A DNA stretch of 64,000 bases from contig QHSX01000041.1 in the NCBI GenBank assembly GCA_003221695.1, positions 93,486 through 157,485 on the forward strand, read 5' to 3'. Of the stretch, positions 9,725-18,707 are shown in pieces (positions within the stretch are counted from its first letter, which is position 1; each line of letters starts with the position of its first letter). The stretch is from Candidatus Rokuibacteriota bacterium. GTDB taxonomy: Bacteria; Methylomirabilota; Methylomirabilia; Rokubacteriales; CSP1-6. A program made the translations under genes and the position numbers. The notes beneath the pieces were generated by a model. It was not told where the DNA came from and did no database searches. It saw only the letters and a list, made by a program, of their open reading frames with translations.

Positions 9725-10140
9725 TTACTCCGTCGCGGTGACCGTCGCTTCGAACGGCGCCGATCTGATGTCGAGCTCGCCGCCTCCGTGGTAACTGAAG
9801 CGAAACACCCCGTGCACGGCGTGGGTGCCGGCGCTCTTCGGCGTGGCGCGAACCGTGAAGACGATGCTGCCGTCCTGAACCGAGCCCGGGACGACCGTCC
9901 CCTCGAGCTCGACGCCGCCGTCAGCGGCCGACAGCCTGATGAGCCGGTGGCGGTACGAATCCGTGATCTTGAAGCCTTCGCCCATCGAGATCTTCGCCAC
10001 GATGATCGCCTTCTCACCCACCCGCGCCGATGCGTTCTCGATGCTGATCACGACGGGCGATTTCGAGTCCGCGGCGGCACTCGGCAGGCCGCTGCATACG
10101 ACCGCCGTCAACGCGACGAGCGTCACGACCAGACGGCTCA
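9725..10140 (-). CDS. secreted hypothetical protein (beta-rich)
   Basis: The track ORF extends to 10234. I favour the GTG at 10140, which is preceded by GGAGGGGGG and gives a classic signal peptide (SRLVVTLVALTAVVCSGLPSAAA/DS). No recognisable cofactor motif. Confidence 0.45.
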
Positions 10141-10234
10141 CGGGACGCGTCCCCCCTCCGAATCGTGGACTCCGCCCGAGGCGAGCCGGTTGTCGCTGCG
10201 GCAACCGGCTCGCCCAGGCGCTTCGTCGCGACAC

Positions 10235-11962
10235 CTACTGCGAAACCGCGAAGACCCAGATCACGCCACCCTGCGGCACGTCCTTCTCCCAGCCGAGAAG
10301 ATTGGAGAGGAGCCCCTGCTGGAAGGCCGGGTCGACGCCCCAGCCCGACACGACGCTGATGTACTGTGTGCCGTTGACCGCGAAGGATGACGGCGGCGCG
10401 ACGATGCCGGAGTTCGTGCGGAACTGCCACAGCACCTTCCCGCTGGACGCGTCGAAGGCGCGGAATTGCCGGTCATTCGTCCCGCCCGTGAAGACGAGCC
10501 CGCCGGCGGTGGTCAGCATCCCACCCCAGGCCATCGAGTCGGGGAACTGGTGACTCCACGCCCGCTTCACCCCGTTGAGGTCCCAGGCCTGGATCTGGCC
10601 GAAGTACTTCGCGCTCTTGTCGACGGCGAAGCCGATGTCGGGGATGTCCACGCCCGTCCACCATTGCCCGGCGACGTACTGCTGGACCTTGCCTTCCATG
10701 AACCCGCAGTGGTTGTCGTTGGCCGGGATGAAGAGGCGCCCCATCTTGGGGTTGTAGGCGGCCGAAGGCCAGTCCTTGCCGCCCCAGAGCGACGGACAGA
10801 AGTCGGCGCGCTTGCCGGTCTTCGGAATCCGCTCGGCGTAGTATTCGGGACGGCCGGTCTTCGGATCGATGCTCCGGAACACGTTTTGCTTGACGTACGC
10901 ATTGGCGGAGACGAACCCGATCCGTTCGCGGCTCCGCTCCAGCAGGTACAGATAGCCGTTGCGCGCCGGGTGGACCAGTCCTTTGACGATGCGCCCGTCC
11001 TTCTGATAGTCGAGGACGAGCGGCGCGTCCGGCTCGTCCCAGTCCCACGATTCGTTCCACTGGTACTGGAAGTGGCCCTTCATCTTGCCCGTCTCGGGCT
11101 CGATGGCGACGGTTGACGCGGTGTAGAGGTTGTCACCCTGGCGCTGATCCCCGAACCAGGGCGAGGCGTTTCCGGTGCCCCAGTAGGTGAGGTTCAGCTC
11201 GGGATCATAGGTACCCGTCAGCCAAACCGACGCGCCGCCCCGTTGCCAGGTGTCGCCAGACCACGTGTCGTGCCCGGGCTCGCCCGGGCCGGGAATCGTG
11301 TGCGTCTTCCACGCGGGCTCGCCGCTCCGAGCGTCGAAGGCCTGCACGAAGCCTCGGACGCCGAACTCTCCGCCGGAGACGCCGACCATGACCTTGCCCT
11401 TCGCGATGAGCGGGGCGAGCGTCATGTAGTAGCCGGTGTGGTAGTCCTCGACCTTCTTTTCCCATGCGACCTTTCCGGTCCTGGCGTCGAGGGCGACCAG
11501 GAAGCAGTCCAGGCTCGCCAGGTACACCTTGTCGTCGTACAGGGCGATCCCGCGGCTCGTGTTATGAAGCGCCTTGAAATCCTCGGGCAATTCCCGCTTG
11601 TAGCGCCAGAGGAACTTGCCCGTCTTCGCCTCGAGGGCGATGACCTGAGCGTACGGGGTCACGACGAACATCACGCCGTTGTTGACGATGGGCGGTGCTT
11701 CGTGGCCCGAGTCCACCCCCGTGGAGAAGGCCCAGACGGGAGTCAACTTCTTCACGTTCCCGGGGGTGATCTGCCCCAGGGGACTGTAGCCCCACCCTTG
11801 ATAGTTGCCGCGGATCTGCAACCAGTTCTCGGGTTCCGGCTTGACCAGCCGTTGCTCGGTGACCGGGCTGTAGCTGCCCTGAGCCACCGCCATCCCCGGC
11901 AGCATCAGAAGGCCGAGGACAGCTGCGAGCGCCAGTAGGGTTCTGCTTGTCTTCACGATCAT
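10235..11962 (-). CDS. PQQ-dependent dehydrogenase, methanol/ethanol family (periplasmic quinoprotein)
   Basis: Trimmed to the ATG at 11962 (MIVKTSRTLLALAAVLGLLMLPGMAVA signal), preceded by GGAGGA. Eight-bladed PQQ propeller with W-motifs that aligns by eye to MxaF/XoxF/ExaA, including the active-site segment SWDWDEPD. Confidence 0.9.
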   Translation of the reverse strand: MIVKTSRTLLALAAVLGLLMLPGMAVAQGSYSPVTEQRLVKPEPENWLQIRGNYQGWGYSPLGQITPGNVKKLTPVWAFSTGVDSGHEAPPIVNNGVMFVVTPYAQVIALEAKTGKFLWRYKRELPEDFKALHNTSRGIALYDDKVYLASLDCFLVALDARTGKVAWEKKVEDYHTGYYMTLAPLIAKGKVMVGVSGGEFGVRGFVQAFDARSGEPAWKTHTIPGPGEPGHDTWSGDTWQRGGASVWLTGTYDPELNLTYWGTGNASPWFGDQRQGDNLYTASTVAIEPETGKMKGHFQYQWNESWDWDEPDAPLVLDYQKDGRIVKGLVHPARNGYLYLLERSRERIGFVSANAYVKQNVFRSIDPKTGRPEYYAERIPKTGKRADFCPSLWGGKDWPSAAYNPKMGRLFIPANDNHCGFMEGKVQQYVAGQWWTGVDIPDIGFAVDKSAKYFGQIQAWDLNGVKRAWSHQFPDSMAWGGMLTTAGGLVFTGGTNDRQFRAFDASSGKVLWQFRTNSGIVAPPSSFAVNGTQYISVVSGWGVDPAFQQGLLSNLLGWEKDVPQGGVIWVFAVSQ

Positions 11963-14097: not shown

Positions 14098-14195
14098 TCG
14101 CACACCTCGCCGGCGCCACGGAAGGCTCTGCTATGATTTGAATCGTCTCGACTCGTGCCGTTTCCCGAGGAGGCCGTGGTCTGACGCAGAGATTC

Positions 14196-15257
14196 GTGCG
14201 ATTGCTCCTCCTCCTCGGCGTCGCTCAGGCCGGGTGCGCGGGAGTCGCTCGCCCGGCACCGACGCCCCAGGCCCAGGCGCAGGTGTACCTCGATCAAGGC
14301 CAAGCCCTCATCGCTCGGGGTGAGATGGCGGCGGCCGTGACAGCACTACGCGAGGCACTCCGGCGTGAGCCCGACCTGATCCAGGCCCGCTCGAGCCTCG
14401 GGCTCGCCCTCTACGGCATGGGCGACCTCGACGCCGCCGTCGAGGAGTTGCGCGCGACCCTCCGAAGGCAGCCCGATGCCTTCACGGCTCGGCTCACCCT
14501 GGCGAGCGCGCTCGTGGCGAAGCAGGACTGGGCGGCGGCGCGCGTCGAGCTCGAGCACGTCCTCCGAGCGCGACCCGACCTCGGCCAGGCGCACTACGGC
14601 CTGGGCGTCGTCCGATACGCGCAGGGCGACCTCGACGGGGCGATCGAGGCGTTCCGTCGTGTCCTCGCGGGCGATCCGCACCACCAGGATGCGCGCTACA
14701 ACCTCGCGCTCATGCTGAGGCTCGCGCAACGCAATGGAGAGGCCACGCCCGAATTTCTCGCCGCCGCGCAGGCGGGACACGCGCGCGCGCAGTACTTCGC
14801 GGGTACGGCGTACGCCGCCGGCCTCGGGGTCGAGCGCGATCTGGCGACCGCCATCACGTGGTGGTTTCGGGCCGCCGAGCAGGGCGTGCCGCAGGCCGAC
14901 GAGGCGCTCGCGCAGCTCAGACAGGTCGCCCTGGGGCGGGACCGGCGCGCACCCGCGGATCGCGCGAACGTCGAGCAAGCGTTTCGGGACTATCGCGCGG
15001 CGCTCTGGCGGGACTTCCCAGGCCTCGCGCCTGACGGAGACGACACGGTCGGCGGCGCCTTGCTCCGGAAAGGGCGCGTGAGCGAGGCGGTGCCGGTGCT
15101 CATCCGCGAGGCCGCCGCGCTGAGCGAGCCGGCCGACCGGCTGCTCGAGCGGCTCTGGACAGAGGGCGTCGACGGACTGCTGCCCGCGCACGACGCGCGG
15201 ATCCTCGGCTACTTCGACCGCGCAGCTGCCGAGGGTCTGCGCTCGCCCGTCCGTTAG
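14196..15257 (+). CDS. TPR/Sel1 repeat protein (likely lipoprotein)
   Basis: Signal/lipobox-like N-terminus (LLLLGVAQAGCAG). Multiple 34-residue TPR-like repeats (AxxxLxxALxxxPD...) and a Sel1-like AQYFAGTAYAAGLGVERDLATAITWWFRAAEQG segment. Confidence 0.7.
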   Translation: MRLLLLLGVAQAGCAGVARPAPTPQAQAQVYLDQGQALIARGEMAAAVTALREALRREPDLIQARSSLGLALYGMGDLDAAVEELRATLRRQPDAFTARLTLASALVAKQDWAAARVELEHVLRARPDLGQAHYGLGVVRYAQGDLDGAIEAFRRVLAGDPHHQDARYNLALMLRLAQRNGEATPEFLAAAQAGHARAQYFAGTAYAAGLGVERDLATAITWWFRAAEQGVPQADEALAQLRQVALGRDRRAPADRANVEQAFRDYRAALWRDFPGLAPDGDDTVGGALLRKGRVSEAVPVLIREAAALSEPADRLLERLWTEGVDGLLPAHDARILGYFDRAAAEGLRSPVR

Positions 15258-15372
15258 GAGTCCTTCGATTCCCCGCCGCGCACTGCCGGCCGCGCTGATC
15301 GGGCTCGCGGCGAGCCTGGTCGCTGGCGTCGTCCTCGCGGGGGGCGGAGGTGGCCTGACCGCACTCGATTGG

Positions 15373-17952
15373 TTGCTCTACGATCGCGGGCTTCACGGGC
15401 GCGGGGCGGCCGTCAGCCCCGCGCTCCTCGTCGTCGCGCGCGACCCGGCGAGCGAGGCCCGATTCGGCGCGGGCCCTTGGGACCGTGCGGTGCTCGCTCG
15501 GCTCGTCGTGGGCCTGAACCGCGCCGGCGCCGCGGCCATCGGCGTCGACATCCCGCTCGGCCCGCCGAGCGCCCCCGGTCGCGGTGGCGCGTCAAGCGAC
15601 GCGTTGCTGAGCCAGGCGACCGTGCTGGCCGGGAATGTCGTCTATCCGATCACGCTCGACCTCCATCCGCTCAAGACGGATCTCGTGCCGGCTCTCTCGC
15701 CTTCGGAGGCTCATCCGTCGTGGCCGCTCCTCCCTCGGGTCCCACTGGCCCTCCCGCGGGCGGAGCCCGGGGCCCCGCTGCCCGGGCTCGCCCGGCAGGC
15801 GAGAGCGGTCGGCCACACGCGGGCGCCCGCCGATCCTGACGGCGTCGTGCGCAGAGTTCCGCTGTTCGTCCAACTGGGCGACCGCGCCGTGCCGGCGTTC
15901 GGCTTCGCAGTCGCGACGGTGGTCGCGGGCGTGTCGCCCGATCAGATCGTGGTCGAGCGCGGCTCGATCACGGTGGGGCGCTGGGGTCGGATCCCTGTCG
16001 ACGACCGTGAGCGGGCGCTCGTCGGCTGGGTCGCCCCTCGGCGGCTCACGGTCGTACCGTTCCTTGACCTCTGGACAGCCGTCGAAGAACGCCGGGCCGA
16101 GGCGCTCCGGACCCTGGTGGAGGACAAGATCGTGCTGGTTCTTACCGAGCCCGCACGCGGGGTCCATCGCACACCGGTCGGCTCCGTGTCCGACGGAGAG
16201 ATCCAGGCGCAAGTGCTCAACGCCGTGCTCACGGGGTCGTGGCTCAGAGAGGCGCCCCTCGGGTGGACGCTGGGCGCCACGCTGGTCATCGCCGCGCTGA
16301 CGGCGTGGCTCGGCCTGGTACTCTCCTGGTGGGCGGCGCTGGTCGGCGTCGCCGTCCTGTCGTCCGGCTACGCCGGCGCTCTGCTGCTGTCGCCGCCGTT
16401 GATCGGCGTCGTCCTGGCGGCGGTCCCGCCGCTCGCCGCGGCGGTCGTGGCCGGGGCCGGCGCGCTCCTGTGGAACCAGCTCGGCTCAGCCCACCGTCTT
16501 CACGGCCTCGAGGATGAGATCGAGACGATCCGTGAGGCGCTGGTGCGCCAGGAGTCGACGGTCGAGGCTCTGGAAGAGGACCTCGAGACGGCGCGCGGTG
16601 CGGTGGCGCGATCGACCGGCGCCGAGCGCGACCTCCTCCAGGTCGCCGAGGCGCTCCGAGTCGAGCTCGCGGCCGCGCGTGCGCAGGAGGGGCAGACGCG
16701 AAGCCGGCTCGCCGACCTGGAGCGCGAGCTTCGTGCTGCCGACTCCCGACACGTGGAGCTCGACGACGCTGAGCAGGAGCGGCTACGCCGACGGTGCGCG
16801 GAGGTCGGGATCGTCACCCGCGATCCCGCGGTGCTGGCGCGCTTCCACGACCTCGAACGGGCGGCGCGCTCCACGTTGCCGATTCTCGTGCTGGGCGAGC
16901 CGGGAACGGGCAAGGAGCTGTTCGCGCGCGCGGTCCACCGCTTGAGCCCTCGGGCCGGCGGGCCCTACGTGGCGGTCAATATGGCCGCGATCCCGCTTGA
17001 GCTGTTCGAGAGCGAGCTGTTCGGCCACGTGAAGGGCAGCTTCACGGGCGCCGTCGCGGAGCGGAAGGGGTACTTCGAGCAGTCCGACCGTGGAACGATC
17101 TTTCTGGACGAGATCGGCGAGCTGCGGGCCGACCACCAGTCGAAGCTCCTCCGCATCCTTCAAGAAAAAACCTTCTACCGGGTTGGGGCGACGCGTGCCA
17201 CCGCGGTGGACGTGCGGGTCGTCGCCGCCAGCAATCGCGACCTCGAGCGCGGCATCGCGGAGGGCTGGTTCCGCGAGGACCTCTATTTCCGCCTGAAGGG
17301 TCTCGTGCTCCGGCTGCCGCCGCTACGCGAGCGACGCCAGGACGTGGGCCCGCTGGCGGCGCGCCTCCTGGAGGACGCCTGCGCCGAGGCGGGCAGGCAT
17401 GTGACGCTCTCGGAGTCAGCGCTGCGCGCGCTCGAGGGGCACGACTGGCCCGGCAACGTTCGGGAGCTCCAGCACTGTCTCCGCCAGGCTGTCGCGCTCG
17501 CCGATCGAGCGGTCCTGGTCGCGGAGGACCTGCGACTCGCCTCGGCGAGCGAGGCGAAGGCCGACGCCGCGGGCGACGCGGCGGTCCTCGTCTGCCTGCG
17601 CCAGCACGGGTTCGACATGCAGGCGACGGCGCGGGCGCTCGGCTGGGACCGGAGCACGGTGACGCAGCGGCTCAAGGGGCTGGGCTTTCGCGCGCTCGTC
17701 GAGTCCGGCGGCGATCGGCGGAAGGCGGCGCTGGAGCTGGCCGGCGCCCCGGCGCTTGGCCGCGTCGTGGAGCTGAAGCTCTCCGAATACCACGAGCACC
17801 TGCTGAGGGCCGTTGAGCCATTCGACTCCGTCGAGGCCGCCCTCGGCGCGTGTCGGCGGCGCTTCAAGAACCTGCCCGACCGGCACTTCCGCTCGCTCGA
17901 GCTTCTGGTCCGCCAGCACTTCGAGGGCCGTCCTCGAGGCGCTCGCGGCTGA
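15373..17952 (+). CDS. sigma-54-dependent transcriptional activator with N-terminal CHASE2 sensor domain (start codon uncertain, probably further upstream)
   Basis: CHASE2-like periplasmic region, then transmembrane helices and a coiled coil. AAA+ sigma-54 interaction domain with Walker A GEPGTGKE and a GSFTGA (GAFTGA-type) loop. C-terminal Fis-type HTH. The track start at 15373 is a TTG. A predicted N-terminal TM helix is encoded in-frame upstream (15283..15370) with no ATG/GTG/TTG. Confidence 0.8.
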   Translation: MLYDRGLHGRGAAVSPALLVVARDPASEARFGAGPWDRAVLARLVVGLNRAGAAAIGVDIPLGPPSAPGRGGASSDALLSQATVLAGNVVYPITLDLHPLKTDLVPALSPSEAHPSWPLLPRVPLALPRAEPGAPLPGLARQARAVGHTRAPADPDGVVRRVPLFVQLGDRAVPAFGFAVATVVAGVSPDQIVVERGSITVGRWGRIPVDDRERALVGWVAPRRLTVVPFLDLWTAVEERRAEALRTLVEDKIVLVLTEPARGVHRTPVGSVSDGEIQAQVLNAVLTGSWLREAPLGWTLGATLVIAALTAWLGLVLSWWAALVGVAVLSSGYAGALLLSPPLIGVVLAAVPPLAAAVVAGAGALLWNQLGSAHRLHGLEDEIETIREALVRQESTVEALEEDLETARGAVARSTGAERDLLQVAEALRVELAAARAQEGQTRSRLADLERELRAADSRHVELDDAEQERLRRRCAEVGIVTRDPAVLARFHDLERAARSTLPILVLGEPGTGKELFARAVHRLSPRAGGPYVAVNMAAIPLELFESELFGHVKGSFTGAVAERKGYFEQSDRGTIFLDEIGELRADHQSKLLRILQEKTFYRVGATRATAVDVRVVAASNRDLERGIAEGWFREDLYFRLKGLVLRLPPLRERRQDVGPLAARLLEDACAEAGRHVTLSESALRALEGHDWPGNVRELQHCLRQAVALADRAVLVAEDLRLASASEAKADAAGDAAVLVCLRQHGFDMQATARALGWDRSTVTQRLKGLGFRALVESGGDRRKAALELAGAPALGRVVELKLSEYHEHLLRAVEPFDSVEAALGACRRRFKNLPDRHFRSLELLVRQHFEGRPRGARG

Positions 17953-18087
17953 TGAAGGCCGCGGGAGCGGGCGCCGCTTGCCCCGATGCGGGGACCCGCG
18001 CGGGGATGCGGGGCTCTCCCCGCATCGAGCGACGGCGCTCCGTCGGGAAGTAGATGAAACCATTCGTTCCGTAGCTCTCCCCCGATG

Positions 18088-18103
18088 TGGCTCGCGCATT
18101 GCT
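18088..18103 (+). promoter_or_regulatory. candidate sigma-54 (-24/-12) promoter TGGCTCG-N4-TTGCT
   Basis: TGGCTCGCGCATTGCT matches the RpoN consensus TGGCACG-N4-TTGCW with one mismatch and correct GG-GC spacing. It lies 29 nt upstream of the OmpA-like ATG (18132) and directly downstream of the sigma-54 activator gene. Confidence 0.45.
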
Positions 18104-18131: not shown

Positions 18132-18707
18132 ATGGCCAACACACACGAGACCACAGAGCCGCCGGCGACCGGGACGCGCGGCGGGAAGGAGCTCGCGATG
18201 ATCGTCGGGGTGCTCCTGACGGCCGTCGCCGCAACGATCGTGACGTACGGGGTTCGTTCCCGAGGCACGGAGGAGGCCTCGCCCAGGCCGGGCGCCGTCG
18301 CGACCGCGCCGGCCCAGGTGCCGACGGTCCCGAACGCGGCGGCCTCCGCCCTGACCGACGCCACGGTCGTCCACACCGACGTCTACTTCGACTTCAAGAG
18401 CGCCCGCCTGCGGGCGGACGCCGTCCGCATCTTGCAGGAGACGGCCGTGGTCGTCGACCGGACGAGCGCCTGGGTGGTGCTCGTCCAGGGCCACGCCGAT
18501 CGTCAGGGCCCGCCCGAGTACAACAAGGTCCTGGCGCAGCGGCGAGCGGAGGCCGTCAAGCAGTTCCTGGTCGAGCTTGGCGTTCCGGACGCCTCGGTCA
18601 AGGTCGCCACGATCGGGCAGGACGGCGCTCTGTGCGACGACCCGAGCAAGGAGTGCCAGCAGATCAACCGCCGGGTGCACGTCGAGATCCGCAAGCTTGC
18701 CCACTAG
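18132..18707 (+). CDS. OmpA-family (OmpA/MotB C-terminal-like) protein
   Basis: ATG at 18132 with RBS GGAGGAAACAAC. One TM/signal helix, then an OmpA-like domain (motifs VLLVQGHADRQGPPEYNKVLAQRRAEAV). Confidence 0.7.
   Translation: MANTHETTEPPATGTRGGKELAMIVGVLLTAVAATIVTYGVRSRGTEEASPRPGAVATAPAQVPTVPNAAASALTDATVVHTDVYFDFKSARLRADAVRILQETAVVVDRTSAWVVLVQGHADRQGPPEYNKVLAQRRAEAVKQFLVELGVPDASVKVATIGQDGALCDDPSKECQQINRRVHVEIRKLAH

What the first reader, a model, noticed from the sequence alone, without database searches (positions are those of the whole stretch)
15259..17952. CHASE2-sensor sigma-54 activator whose N-terminal membrane helix lies upstream of any canonical start codon
In the reading frame of the activator, the 38 codons before the TTG at 15373 encode RRALPAALIGLAASLVAGVVLAGGGGGLTALDWLLYD, which is exactly the N-terminal TM helix expected for a CHASE2 protein. 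Between the upstream stop (15255..15257) and that helix there is no ATG, GTG or TTG, only ATT (15268) and CTG (15283). Either translation initiates at a rare codon or there is a local sequence error. The architecture itself is uncommon: an extracytoplasmic CHASE2 sensor fused directly to a sigma-54 AAA+ module and HTH, with no receiver domain and about 100 extra C-terminal residues.
Basis: seen in the sequence. Interest (0 to 1): 0.55.

Follow-up and report, generated by a model that had tools for sequence, protein, structure and literature searches.

The report
Membrane sigma-54 activator starting at AUU
A membrane-spanning sensor-regulator gene of an uncultured soil bacterium (Rokubacteria) almost certainly starts translation at the rare codon AUU, a start kept in its relatives but missed by public annotation, which therefore cuts off the protein's first membrane helix.

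Summary
The TAG at 15255..15257 is not in the activator's frame. It is the stop of the upstream TPR/Sel1 gene. The true in-frame stop is TGA 15121..15123, and no ATG, GTG or TTG follows until TTG 15373.

The real start is almost certainly ATT 15268. It lies 7 nt after AGGAG (15256..15260) and 10 nt after the TPR stop.

- ATT sits at the family's consensus N-terminus in 10 diverged orthologues (65-84% identity).
- Their first canonical start codons fall at different places.
- Across 359 comparable alignment columns, codon 1 is the only one where all ten share an A/T-ending codon. ATT is 4.8% of Ile codons here.
- Sequencing error is excluded: three public assemblies have the same 201 bases.

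The 894-residue protein has TM1, a periplasmic CHASE2 domain, three more membrane helices, a coiled coil, a sigma-54 AAA+ module, an HTH and a conserved C-terminal extension. Without TM1 the topology fails.

The architecture is abundant in Rokubacteria but apparently undescribed. About half the sampled family has ATT, CTG or ATC at a tight junction with the TPR gene. A conserved palindrome and sigma-54 promoter precede the downstream OmpA-family gene. All 15 listed members of the gene's 87-member protein cluster are N-terminally truncated.

The parts
14196..15257 (+). Upstream partner gene: secreted TPR/Sel1-repeat protein (353 aa from GTG 14196; stop TAG 15255..15257)
   Evidence: ORF and translation. 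Pfam TPR_16, TPR_11 and Sel1. N-terminal signal-like VRLLLLLGVAQAGC. A homologue ends on the same strand just upstream of the activator in 63 of 69 related loci.
15256..15260 (+). Shine-Dalgarno AGGAG, overlapping the TPR stop codon (TAGGAG)
   Evidence: Read from the sequence. (T)AGGAG(G) lies 6-7 nt before the ATT in L012, L013, L010, L018, L022 and L073. L074 has the weaker AGGGA and L007 has GAGG.
15268..15270 (+). Proposed start codon ATT (AUU), 7 nt after the SD and 10 nt after the TPR stop
   Evidence: It aligns with the family's consensus N-terminus. It is ATT in nine diverged orthologues as well as the window. It is the only invariant A/T-ending codon among 359 columns. ATT is 4.8% of Ile codons in the window.
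15268..17952 (+). Full CDS of the CHASE2 sigma-54 activator (894 codons plus TGA)
   Evidence: AlphaFold2 model with mean pLDDT 88.2.
15277..15360 (+). TM1 (residues 4-31), preceded by the Arg-Arg tail
   Evidence: Kyte-Doolittle hydropathy maximum 2.30. AF2 helix 2-26 with pLDDT 83-93. The Pfam CHASE2 match begins at residue 19.
15373..15375 (+). TTG used as the start in public annotations (859-aa product). Probably not the real start.
   Evidence: The nearest GGAGG ends more than 20 nt upstream. The product would lack TM1.
15322..16302 (+). CHASE2 domain (Pfam match, residues 19-345)
   Evidence: PF05226, E = 1.4e-34, 120.3 bits against a cut-off of 26.3.
16264..16473 (+). Three further TM helices (residues 333-402)
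   Evidence: Hydropathy. AF2 helices 331-351 and 354-379, and the start of helix 386-448.
16474..16803 (+). Long helical (coiled-coil-like) linker, residues about 403-512
   Evidence: AF2 helices 386-448 and 453-491.
16813..17565 (+). Sigma-54 AAA+ module with lid (residues 516-766). Walker A GEPGTGKE, loop GSFTGA, Walker B FLDEIGE.
   Evidence: PF00158 at 208.7 bits and PF25601 at 71.7 bits. Foldseek matches NtrC1, FlrC and FleQ AAA+ domains with target TM-scores of 0.84-0.91. Motifs read.
17593..17676 (+). Fis-type HTH (residues 776-803)
   Evidence: PF02954 at 23.8 bits against a cut-off of 22. The sequence is nearly invariant in the family.
17677..17949 (+). Conserved helical C-terminal extension (residues 804-894)
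   Evidence: Conserved family-wide. AF2 helices with pLDDT 90-96 for most of it. No Pfam family matches.
17985..18026 (+). Candidate enhancer (UAS): half-site GATGCGGGG plus the perfect palindrome GATGCGGGG-N4-CCCCGCATC (18005..18026)
   Evidence: These are the only three copies of the 9-mer in 64 kb. The palindrome arms are almost invariant in 10 orthologous loci while the 4-nt loop varies. No T-run follows, and it is not scored as a terminator.
18088..18103 (+). Sigma-54 -24/-12 promoter TGGCTCGCGCATTGCT (GG-N10-GC)
   Evidence: One mismatch to TGGCAC-N5-TTGCW. TGGC and TTGC are kept and the spacer varies in most orthologous loci.
18132..18707 (+). Likely target gene: OmpA-family protein (191 aa) with an N-terminal membrane anchor
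   Evidence: PF00691 at 58.8 bits. Translation. It lies downstream of the activator in all eleven related loci whose called genes were listed.

Best explanation
The gene encodes an 894-residue one-component transmembrane regulator. Translation starts at AUU 15268, presumably decoded as fMet. The start is directed by the AGGAG 7 nt upstream and probably helped by ribosomes terminating at the TPR gene's TAG 10 nt upstream.

Shown by sequence analysis:
- The position of the start.
- Its conservation in relatives.
- The domain order: short Arg-rich cytoplasmic tail, TM1, CHASE2, three TM helices, coiled coil, sigma-54 AAA+ module, HTH, conserved C-terminal helices.
- The conserved TPR-activator-OmpA gene order.
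- The conserved palindrome and -24/-12 promoter in front of the OmpA-family gene.

Inferred:
- The periplasmic CHASE2 domain, possibly together with the secreted TPR/Sel1 protein, senses an envelope or extracellular cue.
- The signal passes through the TM bundle and coiled coil to control assembly or ATPase activity of the AAA+ ring.
- The ring, bound at the palindrome, activates the sigma-54 promoter of the OmpA-family gene.
- The weak AUU start keeps the membrane regulator scarce relative to its TPR partner, and perhaps dependent on that partner's translation.
For: Start position:
- There is no canonical start between the in-frame stop (15121..15123) and TTG 15373.
- AGGAG lies 7 nt before the ATT. 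The neighbouring OmpA gene has the same spacing, GGAGG-7 nt-ATG.
- Family N-termini that do have an ATG read M-[KR]-[KRT]-x-A-L-x-A-A-V-I-G-L and begin within one codon of the ATT position.
- Nine orthologues at 65-84% identity (L012, L013, L010, L018, L019, L022, L007, L073, L074) carry ATT there.
- Their first canonical starts lie at different places: the V of AAVIGL, the V of RRVLP, the M of ALMAAV, or the middle of TM1.
- The reading frame relative to the TPR stop differs among orthologues (offsets 0, 1 and 2) and the SD-ATT spacer varies (6-7 nt). No indel occurs in the first 13 codons after the ATT in the 8 orthologues compared.

Codon statistics:
- ATT is 23 of 483 Ile codons in the window's genes.
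- Retention of the window's other A/T-ending synonymous codons falls from 52% in L012 to 18% in L022 and 3% in L007.
- Codon 1 is the single column of 359 where all ten sequences share an A/T-ending codon. The other six invariant-Ile columns are mostly or wholly ATC.
- In L070 and L071, which have a GTG one codon upstream, that Ile codon is ATC.

The sequence is genuine and the gene is functional:
- The 201 bases around the start are identical in three public assemblies.
- GC3 is 0.88.
- The AF2 model has pLDDT 88.

Topology:
- One TM helix precedes CHASE2 and three follow it. The AAA+ and HTH parts are cytoplasmic only if TM1 is made.

Function:
- The TPR homologue ends on the same strand just upstream of the activator in 63 of 69 loci. 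The gap from its stop to the likely activator start runs from -4 to about +25 nt.
- The conserved palindrome and TGGC-N8-TTGC element precede the OmpA gene.
- AUU starts, and their roughly 6-8-fold lower output, are documented for E. coli infC and pcnB (PMC3592434).
Against: - There is no direct evidence for the protein's N-terminus. The organism is uncultured and no proteomic or ribosome-profiling data were available.
- In most ATT orthologues a GTG or ATG lies 4-10 codons downstream and could be used instead or as well. Only the window and L074 lack one before mid-TM1.
- L066 keeps ATT after a GTG and L072 keeps it as an internal codon, so the 'ATT relaxes to ATC' pattern is 2 of 4.
- Coupling is not proven. 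The 10-nt gap is at the edge of what termination-reinitiation tolerates (PMC10666635). L073 has about 250 nt inserted between the TPR stop and the SD-ATT.
- The palindrome could be an RNA hairpin rather than a binding site.
- The loop reads GSFTGA, not the canonical GAFTGA.
- The presence of rpoN in this genome was not checked.
Confidence: 0.82

Rival explanations
1. Translation starts at another near-cognate codon inside or just before TM1 (CTG 15283, CTG 15295 or ATC 15298). The protein would keep TM1 but lose the Arg-Arg tail.
For: These codons are in frame. In many orthologues the codon matching 15295 is GTG and is the start that gene callers chose.
Against: They lie 22-37 nt from the only SD. 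None is conserved as a possible initiator: 15283 is CTC in five of the eight orthologues compared, and 15295 is GTC in L010 and CTC in L022. The Arg-rich tail before TM1 is a family-wide feature.
Confidence: 0.08
2. The public annotation is right. Translation starts at TTG 15373 and the protein lacks TM1.
For: It is the first canonical start. All 15 listed members of the 87-member 90%-identity cluster are called at 859/860 or 820/821 residues.
Against: There is no SD at a usable distance. The call removes 17 residues of the Pfam CHASE2 match. It also removes a helix predicted with pLDDT 83-93. With three TM helices left, either CHASE2 or the AAA+/HTH part would be on the wrong side of the membrane. 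The 35 codons upstream are conserved as protein in relatives, with no indel in the first 13 codons that were aligned codon by codon.
Confidence: 0.03
3. Sequencing or assembly error, or a recent start-loss mutation that made the gene a pseudogene.
For: ATT differs from ATG by a single base.
Against: The sequence is identical in three public assemblies. The ATT is conserved in nine orthologues at 65-84% identity. The ORF is intact at 894 codons with GC3 of 0.88. The exact 859-residue product is called on three separate public contigs.
Confidence: 0.02
4. Recoding (frameshift or stop read-through) fuses the TPR protein to the activator.
For: The activator frame is open for 44 codons inside the 3' end of the TPR gene. 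In L013 the TAG is in frame with the activator.
Against: The frame offset between the two genes is 0, 1 or 2 in different orthologues, so no single recoding event could be conserved. The overlapping frame shows no conserved peptide. A fusion would place an exported TPR domain before an N-in helix. No significant RNA structure is present (z = +1.43).
Confidence: 0.01

Closest known systems
E. coli infC (IF3) and pcnB: chromosomal genes that start at AUU
   Same: Both have an in-frame AUU with a Shine-Dalgarno at normal spacing. infC's AUU lies 3 nt after the stop of the upstream gene, modelled as UAA GGU AUU. In reporters the weak codon gave 6-8-fold less output than AUG or GUG, and in pcnB it limits expression (PMC3592434 and its references 5 and 6).
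   Different: Here the gene is a membrane sensor-regulator rather than a translation or RNA-processing factor. IF3-dependent autoregulation has no obvious rationale and was not tested. The use of non-canonical starts recurs across a whole protein family with several different codons (ATT, CTG, ATC).
Bacterial enhancer-binding proteins (NtrC1, PspF, FleQ, FlrC, NorR, DmpR)
   Same: It has a sigma-54 AAA+ module with Walker A and B motifs, a GAFTGA-type loop and a lid, followed by a Fis-type HTH. Target TM-scores to the solved AAA+ domains are 0.84-0.91. A -24/-12 promoter with an upstream palindrome lies next to the gene.
   Different: The regulatory module is an integral-membrane CHASE2 sensor with four TM helices, not a soluble receiver, GAF, PAS or V4R domain. 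The loop reads GSFTGA. About 90 conserved residues follow the HTH. No paper describing this combination was found.
CHASE2 extracytoplasmic sensors (Pfam PF05226). From my own knowledge these are usually fused to adenylate or diguanylate cyclases, histidine kinases or Ser/Thr kinases.
   Same: There is a strong Pfam match. The topology is one TM helix before the domain and three after it.
   Different: The output is a transcription activator acting directly on DNA. The list of usual partners is recalled, not tested here.
ToxR-ToxS and CadC-type membrane-bound one-component transcription regulators
   Same: The DNA-binding regulator is anchored in the inner membrane and has a periplasmic sensor. 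ToxR has a co-encoded periplasmic partner, ToxS (abstract of PMC13042144). Here the TPR/Sel1 protein is a candidate for that role.
   Different: It is unrelated in sequence and fold. It is sigma-54 dependent, needs oligomerisation and ATP hydrolysis, and has four TM helices rather than one. Any interaction with the TPR protein is inferred only from conserved adjacency.

Membership tests
Bacterial enhancer-binding protein (sigma-54 activator) | AAA+ sigma-54 interaction domain with Walker A and Walker B motifs | tested here: met
   PF00158 E = 6e-62 (residues 516-680). GEPGTGKE and FLDEIGE are read from the translation. Foldseek matches NtrC1, FlrC and FleQ.
Bacterial enhancer-binding protein (sigma-54 activator) | GAFTGA loop that contacts sigma-54 | tested here: inconclusive
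   The loop reads GSFTGA. G590, F592, G594 and A595 are invariant and S591 and T593 are 90% or more conserved in 89 family members. Whether the Ala-to-Ser variant is functional was not tested.
Bacterial enhancer-binding protein (sigma-54 activator) | C-terminal DNA-binding HTH and a cognate enhancer with a -24/-12 promoter | tested here: met
   HTH_8 scores 23.8 bits against a cut-off of 22. A conserved palindrome lies at 18005..18026 and TGGCTC-N5-TTGCT at 18088..18103. Actual binding and activation cannot be tested here.
NtrC-family response regulator (the name JGI gives to orthologues) | N-terminal receiver domain with a phospho-acceptor Asp | tested here: not met
   Pfam gives no Response_reg hit. 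The N-terminal 510 residues are TM1, CHASE2, three TM helices and a coiled coil.
CHASE2 sensor proteins | CHASE2 domain bracketed by TM helices (one before, three after) | tested here: met
   PF05226 scores 120 bits. Hydropathy and AF2 give TM1 at residues 2-31 and three TM helices at 331-402. This is met only if translation starts upstream of TM1.
Genes initiated at AUU (infC/pcnB type) | In-frame AUU at the homologous N-terminus with an SD at functional spacing | tested here: met
   AGGAG, 7 nt, then ATT. The position aligns with the ATG or GTG starts of family members.
Genes initiated at AUU (infC/pcnB type) | The AUU is conserved beyond what synonymous drift would allow | tested here: met
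   It is the only one of 359 columns with an invariant A/T-ending codon in ten sequences. The ATT share of Ile codons is 4.8%. Retention of other rare codons is 3-52%.
Genes initiated at AUU (infC/pcnB type) | Experimentally mapped N-terminus; sensitivity to IF3 | not testable with these tools
   This needs N-terminal proteomics, initiation-site profiling or reporters.
Translationally coupled gene pair (termination-reinitiation) | Same-strand neighbours with an overlap or a very short gap, conserved across relatives | tested here: met
   The gap is 10 nt in the window. It runs from -4 (CTGA or ATGA overlaps) to about +25 nt elsewhere. The TPR homologue ends just upstream of the activator in 63 of 69 loci. 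L073 is an exception with a gap of about 250 nt.
Translationally coupled gene pair (termination-reinitiation) | Downstream translation depends on upstream translation | not testable with these tools
   This needs a premature stop in the TPR gene in a two-reporter construct.

The most novel reading that the evidence does not exclude
Weak, near-cognate start codons (AUU, CUG, AUC) at the TPR-activator junction are a selected and recurrently evolved feature of this family. They would make synthesis of the membrane-bound sigma-54 activator scarce and dependent on translation of its periplasmic TPR partner, fixing the ratio of the two proteins. About half of the roughly 50 sampled lineages, in at least four separate branches of the tree, have no canonical start before TM1. 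The window's other 37 high-GC3 ORFs show no comparable coding-like stretch upstream of their first canonical start; six of them were inspected.
Probability: 0.35. Interest if true: 0.65.

Novelty: new variant of a known kind. Interest (0 to 1): 0.5.

Why it matters
- Annotation. All 15 listed members of this gene's 87-member protein cluster lack TM1, and no full-length version is on record. One example is NCBI PYM40348.1, 'hypothetical protein', 859 aa. In roughly half of the sampled orthologous loci no canonical start precedes TM1, so automatic gene calls there are likely to be truncated too. Truncated entries give wrong topology predictions and damage family models.
- Translation. A rare start codon kept across deep divergence, with other near-cognate codons in sister clades of the same tightly joined gene pair, is a natural test case. 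It bears on how start-codon strength and translational coupling set the level of a regulator.
- Signalling. A sigma-54 activator built into the membrane with a CHASE2 sensor raises the question of how an AAA+ ring assembles and reaches DNA while each subunit has four membrane helices. It also offers a compact read-out (sensor, palindrome, -24/-12 promoter, OmpA-family gene) for a sensor domain whose ligands, to my knowledge, are unknown.

Tried and rejected
- RNA structure at the junction: none. The 106-nt region folds less stably than shuffled sequences (z = +1.43) and RNAalifold gives no positive covariation term.
- Recoding fusion with the TPR gene: rejected, because the frame offsets differ among orthologues.
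- Sequence error: rejected.
- The palindrome as an intrinsic terminator: no T-run, and the scan does not call it.
- Scan of species-representative genomes with the single protein: only 8 loci, mostly distant. The metagenome scan and exact-protein look-ups were needed to get close relatives.
- Exact look-up of the 894-residue product starting with M: not in the 15-billion-protein collection.
- Literature searches for CHASE2 with sigma-54, for membrane-bound bEBPs, and for Rokubacteria start codons: nothing relevant.
- Foldseek with the full-length model: only the AAA+ module was recovered. There was no informative match for CHASE2 or the C-terminal extension among the top 50 hits.
- The invariant-codon test applied to the CTG clade: only weakly informative. 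Two of 19 invariant-Leu columns are all CTG, one of them codon 1.
- A check of whether other genes in the window lack canonical starts: none was convincing. Six were inspected; five have ordinary ATG or GTG starts and the sixth (9939..10553) was left unresolved.
Full report
**What is in the sequence**

The activator ORF listed by the mechanical ORF finder runs from TTG 15373 to TGA 17950..17952. Its frame stays open upstream to TGA 15121..15123. Those 83 codons contain no ATG, GTG or TTG.

It ends the preceding gene (14196..15257), a TPR/Sel1-repeat protein with an N-terminal signal-like sequence.

The junction reads cgt-TAGGAG-tccttcg-ATT. AGGAG occupies 15256..15260, a 7-nt spacer follows, and ATT sits at 15268, 10 nt after the TPR stop. 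From the ATT the frame encodes IPRRALPAALIGLAASLVAGVVLAGGGGGLTALDWLLYDR....

**Architecture**

Numbering runs from the ATT.

| Element | Residues | Evidence |
|---|---|---|
| CHASE2 | 19-345 | Pfam, 120 bits |
| Sigma54_activat | 516-680 | Pfam, 209 bits |
| AAA_lid_14 | 687-766 | Pfam |
| HTH_8 | 776-803 | Pfam, 23.8 bits, cut-off 22 |
| Receiver domain | none | no Pfam hit |

- Hydropathy gives one TM segment at residues 4-31 and three at 333-402.
- An AlphaFold2 model built on 89 family sequences has mean pLDDT 88.2. It shows helix 2-26 (pLDDT 83-93), the three later TM helices, a long helical linker and a helical C-terminal extension.
- Foldseek matches the AAA+ part to NtrC1, FlrC and FleQ, with target TM-scores of 0.84-0.91.
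- The loop reads GSFTGA, and Walker A and Walker B are present.
- With three TM helices after CHASE2, the AAA+ and HTH parts can be cytoplasmic and CHASE2 periplasmic only if TM1 is made. A protein starting at TTG 15373 would have an impossible topology.

**Source and authenticity**

- The exact 859-residue product is found in Candidatus Rokubacteria assemblies: GCA_003220365.1 and two ENA assemblies.
- The 201 bases around the start are identical in all three.
- The 90%-identity cluster has 87 members. All 15 listed are called at 859/860 or 820/821 residues, including NCBI PYM40348.1, 'hypothetical protein'.
- The 894-residue version starting with M is not in the collection.
- A sequencing error or a private mutation is therefore excluded, and the listed public records are N-terminally truncated.

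**Where relatives start**

The best 120 homologues are all CHASE2 plus sigma-54 proteins. Those with a clear ATG begin M-[KR]-[KRT]-x-A-L-x-A-A-V-I-G-L-A-A-T-L, within one codon of the window's ATT.

I recovered DNA for about 70 loci. Nine orthologues at 65-84% whole-protein identity have ATT at this position: L012, L013, L010, L018, L019, L022, L007, L073 and L074. Most have (T)AGGAG(G) 6-7 nt upstream.

Their first canonical start codons are scattered:

| Loci | First canonical start |
|---|---|
| L012, L013, L073 | GTG at the V of AAVIGL |
| L010 | GTG at RRVLP |
| L018, L019 | ATG at ALMAAV |
| L074 | GTG in mid-TM1 |
| Window | TTG after TM1 |

Only the ATT is shared. Upstream of it the frame relative to the TPR stop differs (offsets 0, 1 and 2) and the spacer length varies. 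No indel occurs in the first 13 codons after the ATT in the 8 orthologues compared.

**Is the ATT conservation more than descent?**

- ATT is 23 of 483 Ile codons (4.8%) in the window's high-GC3 ORFs. ATC is 94.6%.
- The window's other A/T-ending codons are kept in only 52% (L012) down to 18% (L022) and 3% (L007) of positions with the same amino acid.
- In the alignment of the ten ATT sequences (the window and nine orthologues), 359 columns have the same degenerate amino acid in all. Exactly one of them has the same A/T-ending codon in all ten, and that is codon 1, ATT.
- The other six invariant-Ile columns are ATC in 10, 10, 10, 10, 9 and 7 sequences.
- In L070 and L071 a GTG lies one codon upstream and the Ile codon is ATC. 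L066 and L072 keep ATT next to or downstream of a canonical start, so this last pattern is only suggestive.

**Family-wide pattern**

- A TPR homologue ends on the same strand just upstream of the activator in 63 of 69 loci.
- Its stop lies between -4 and about +25 nt from the likely activator start in nearly all.
- About 24 distinct loci have ATG or GTG at that junction. About as many do not.
- The non-canonical ones are the ATT group, a large clade whose frame begins with CTG overlapping the TPR stop as CTGA, a few with TAG-5 nt-ATC, and a few with no candidate I could recognise (L035, L004, L006).
- On a neighbour-joining tree these fall in at least four separate places. L007's ATT is separate from the window clade.
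- In the window itself, none of the other 37 high-GC3 ORFs shows a comparably long coding-like stretch upstream of its first canonical start. Of six inspected, five have ordinary ATG or GTG starts and one (9939..10553) was left unresolved.
- In this small sample the pattern therefore looks specific to the family rather than genome-wide.

**Mechanism of initiation**

Shown: the start position, the SD, the conservation and the tight junction.

Established knowledge: AUU is used in E. coli infC, where it lies 3 nt after the upstream stop, and in pcnB. In a reporter it gave 6-8-fold less output than AUG or GUG (PMC3592434). Termination-reinitiation needs an overlap or a very short gap and is nearly lost at about 20 nt (PMC10666635).

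Inferred: here the SD drives initiation at AUU, with some contribution from ribosomes terminating 10 nt upstream. In the CTGA clade, which has no nearby SD, reinitiation would be the main route.

Caveat: L073 has about 250 nt inserted between the TPR stop and an intact SD-ATT, so coupling is not indispensable.

The junction has no significant RNA structure.

**What the regulator probably controls**

- Downstream of the activator lies the palindrome GATGCGGGG-N4-CCCCGCATC (18005..18026), with an extra half-site at 17985..17993. These are the only three copies of the 9-mer in 64 kb.
- The arms are nearly invariant in ten orthologous loci while the loop varies.
- About 76 bp further on is TGGCTCGCGCATTGCT (18088..18103, GG-N10-GC). 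Its TGGC and TTGC blocks are conserved and its spacer varies across most loci.
- It lies 29 nt before the ATG of an OmpA-family gene with an N-terminal membrane anchor.
- This is the layout of an enhancer-dependent sigma-54 promoter.
- That the activator binds the palindrome, and that the TPR protein works with the CHASE2 domain, are inferences from conserved adjacency.

**Comparison with known systems**

- The start codon makes this a new example of the infC/pcnB kind.
- The protein is a bEBP by its AAA+ module, HTH and adjacent promoter. It is not a response regulator.
- Its sensor is an integral-membrane CHASE2 module, a combination I could not find described.
- Functionally it resembles membrane-bound one-component regulators such as ToxR with ToxS, without being related to them.

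**Verdict**

- The finding is real, and its central question is answered in favour of a rare start codon. Confidence that ATT 15268 is the start is about 0.8.
- It is a new variant of known kinds and moderately interesting.
- The interest comes from the annotation error, from the recurrent near-cognate starts at a coupled junction, and from the membrane-embedded sigma-54 activator.

Noticed in passing
window 17985..18103: Between the activator and the OmpA-family gene lie three elements. The first is a unique palindrome GATGCGGGG-N4-CCCCGCATC with an extra half-site. The second is a conserved A/T-richer block (AAGT..GAAACCATTCGT). The third is a conserved sigma-54 -24/-12 element. Together they look like a complete enhancer-dependent promoter.
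   Followed up: partly
L018 1470..1503 and L068 (metagenome orthologues): There is a tandem 18-nt duplication of the SD-start module right after the TPR stop: AGGAGCCCCACGATCGTC then AGGAGCCCCGCGATTCCC, in frame. The first copy has ATC and the second ATT. In L019 the second SD is mutated to AGGCG.
   Followed up: no
L073 1222..1474: About 250 nt are inserted between the TPR stop and the SD-ATT of the activator. The SD-ATT module, including a TAG overlapping the SD, is kept. A 74-codon ORF with no recognised similarity ends at that TAG.
   Followed up: partly
L044, L047, L049, L051, L052, L054, L063, L067, L050, L060, L031: In another clade of the family the activator frame begins with CTG overlapping the TPR stop as CTGA, with no nearby SD and no canonical start before TM1. 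L031 and L060 also have a GTG four codons further on. L059 and L037 have TAG-5 nt-ATC.
   Followed up: partly
L035/L039/L040, L004, L006: These orthologues have an intact TM1-coding frame but no canonical or obvious near-cognate start codon at the junction (for example AGC where relatives have ATC). Their start is unexplained.
   Followed up: no
window 17677..17949: The roughly 90 residues after the HTH (...LKLSEYHEHLLR...CRRRFKNLPDRHFRSLELLVRQ) are among the most conserved parts of the family and are predicted helical with high confidence. They match no Pfam family.
   Followed up: partly
window 14142..14196: The start of the TPR gene is called differently in three assemblies of the same sequence (371, 353 and 310 residues). 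Its true start was not resolved.
   Followed up: no
window 9879..10553 (+): An ORF has coding-like GC3 (0.95) in the 20 codons upstream of its first ATG. It may be a mis-framed or opposite-strand artefact of my crude gene finder.
   Followed up: no
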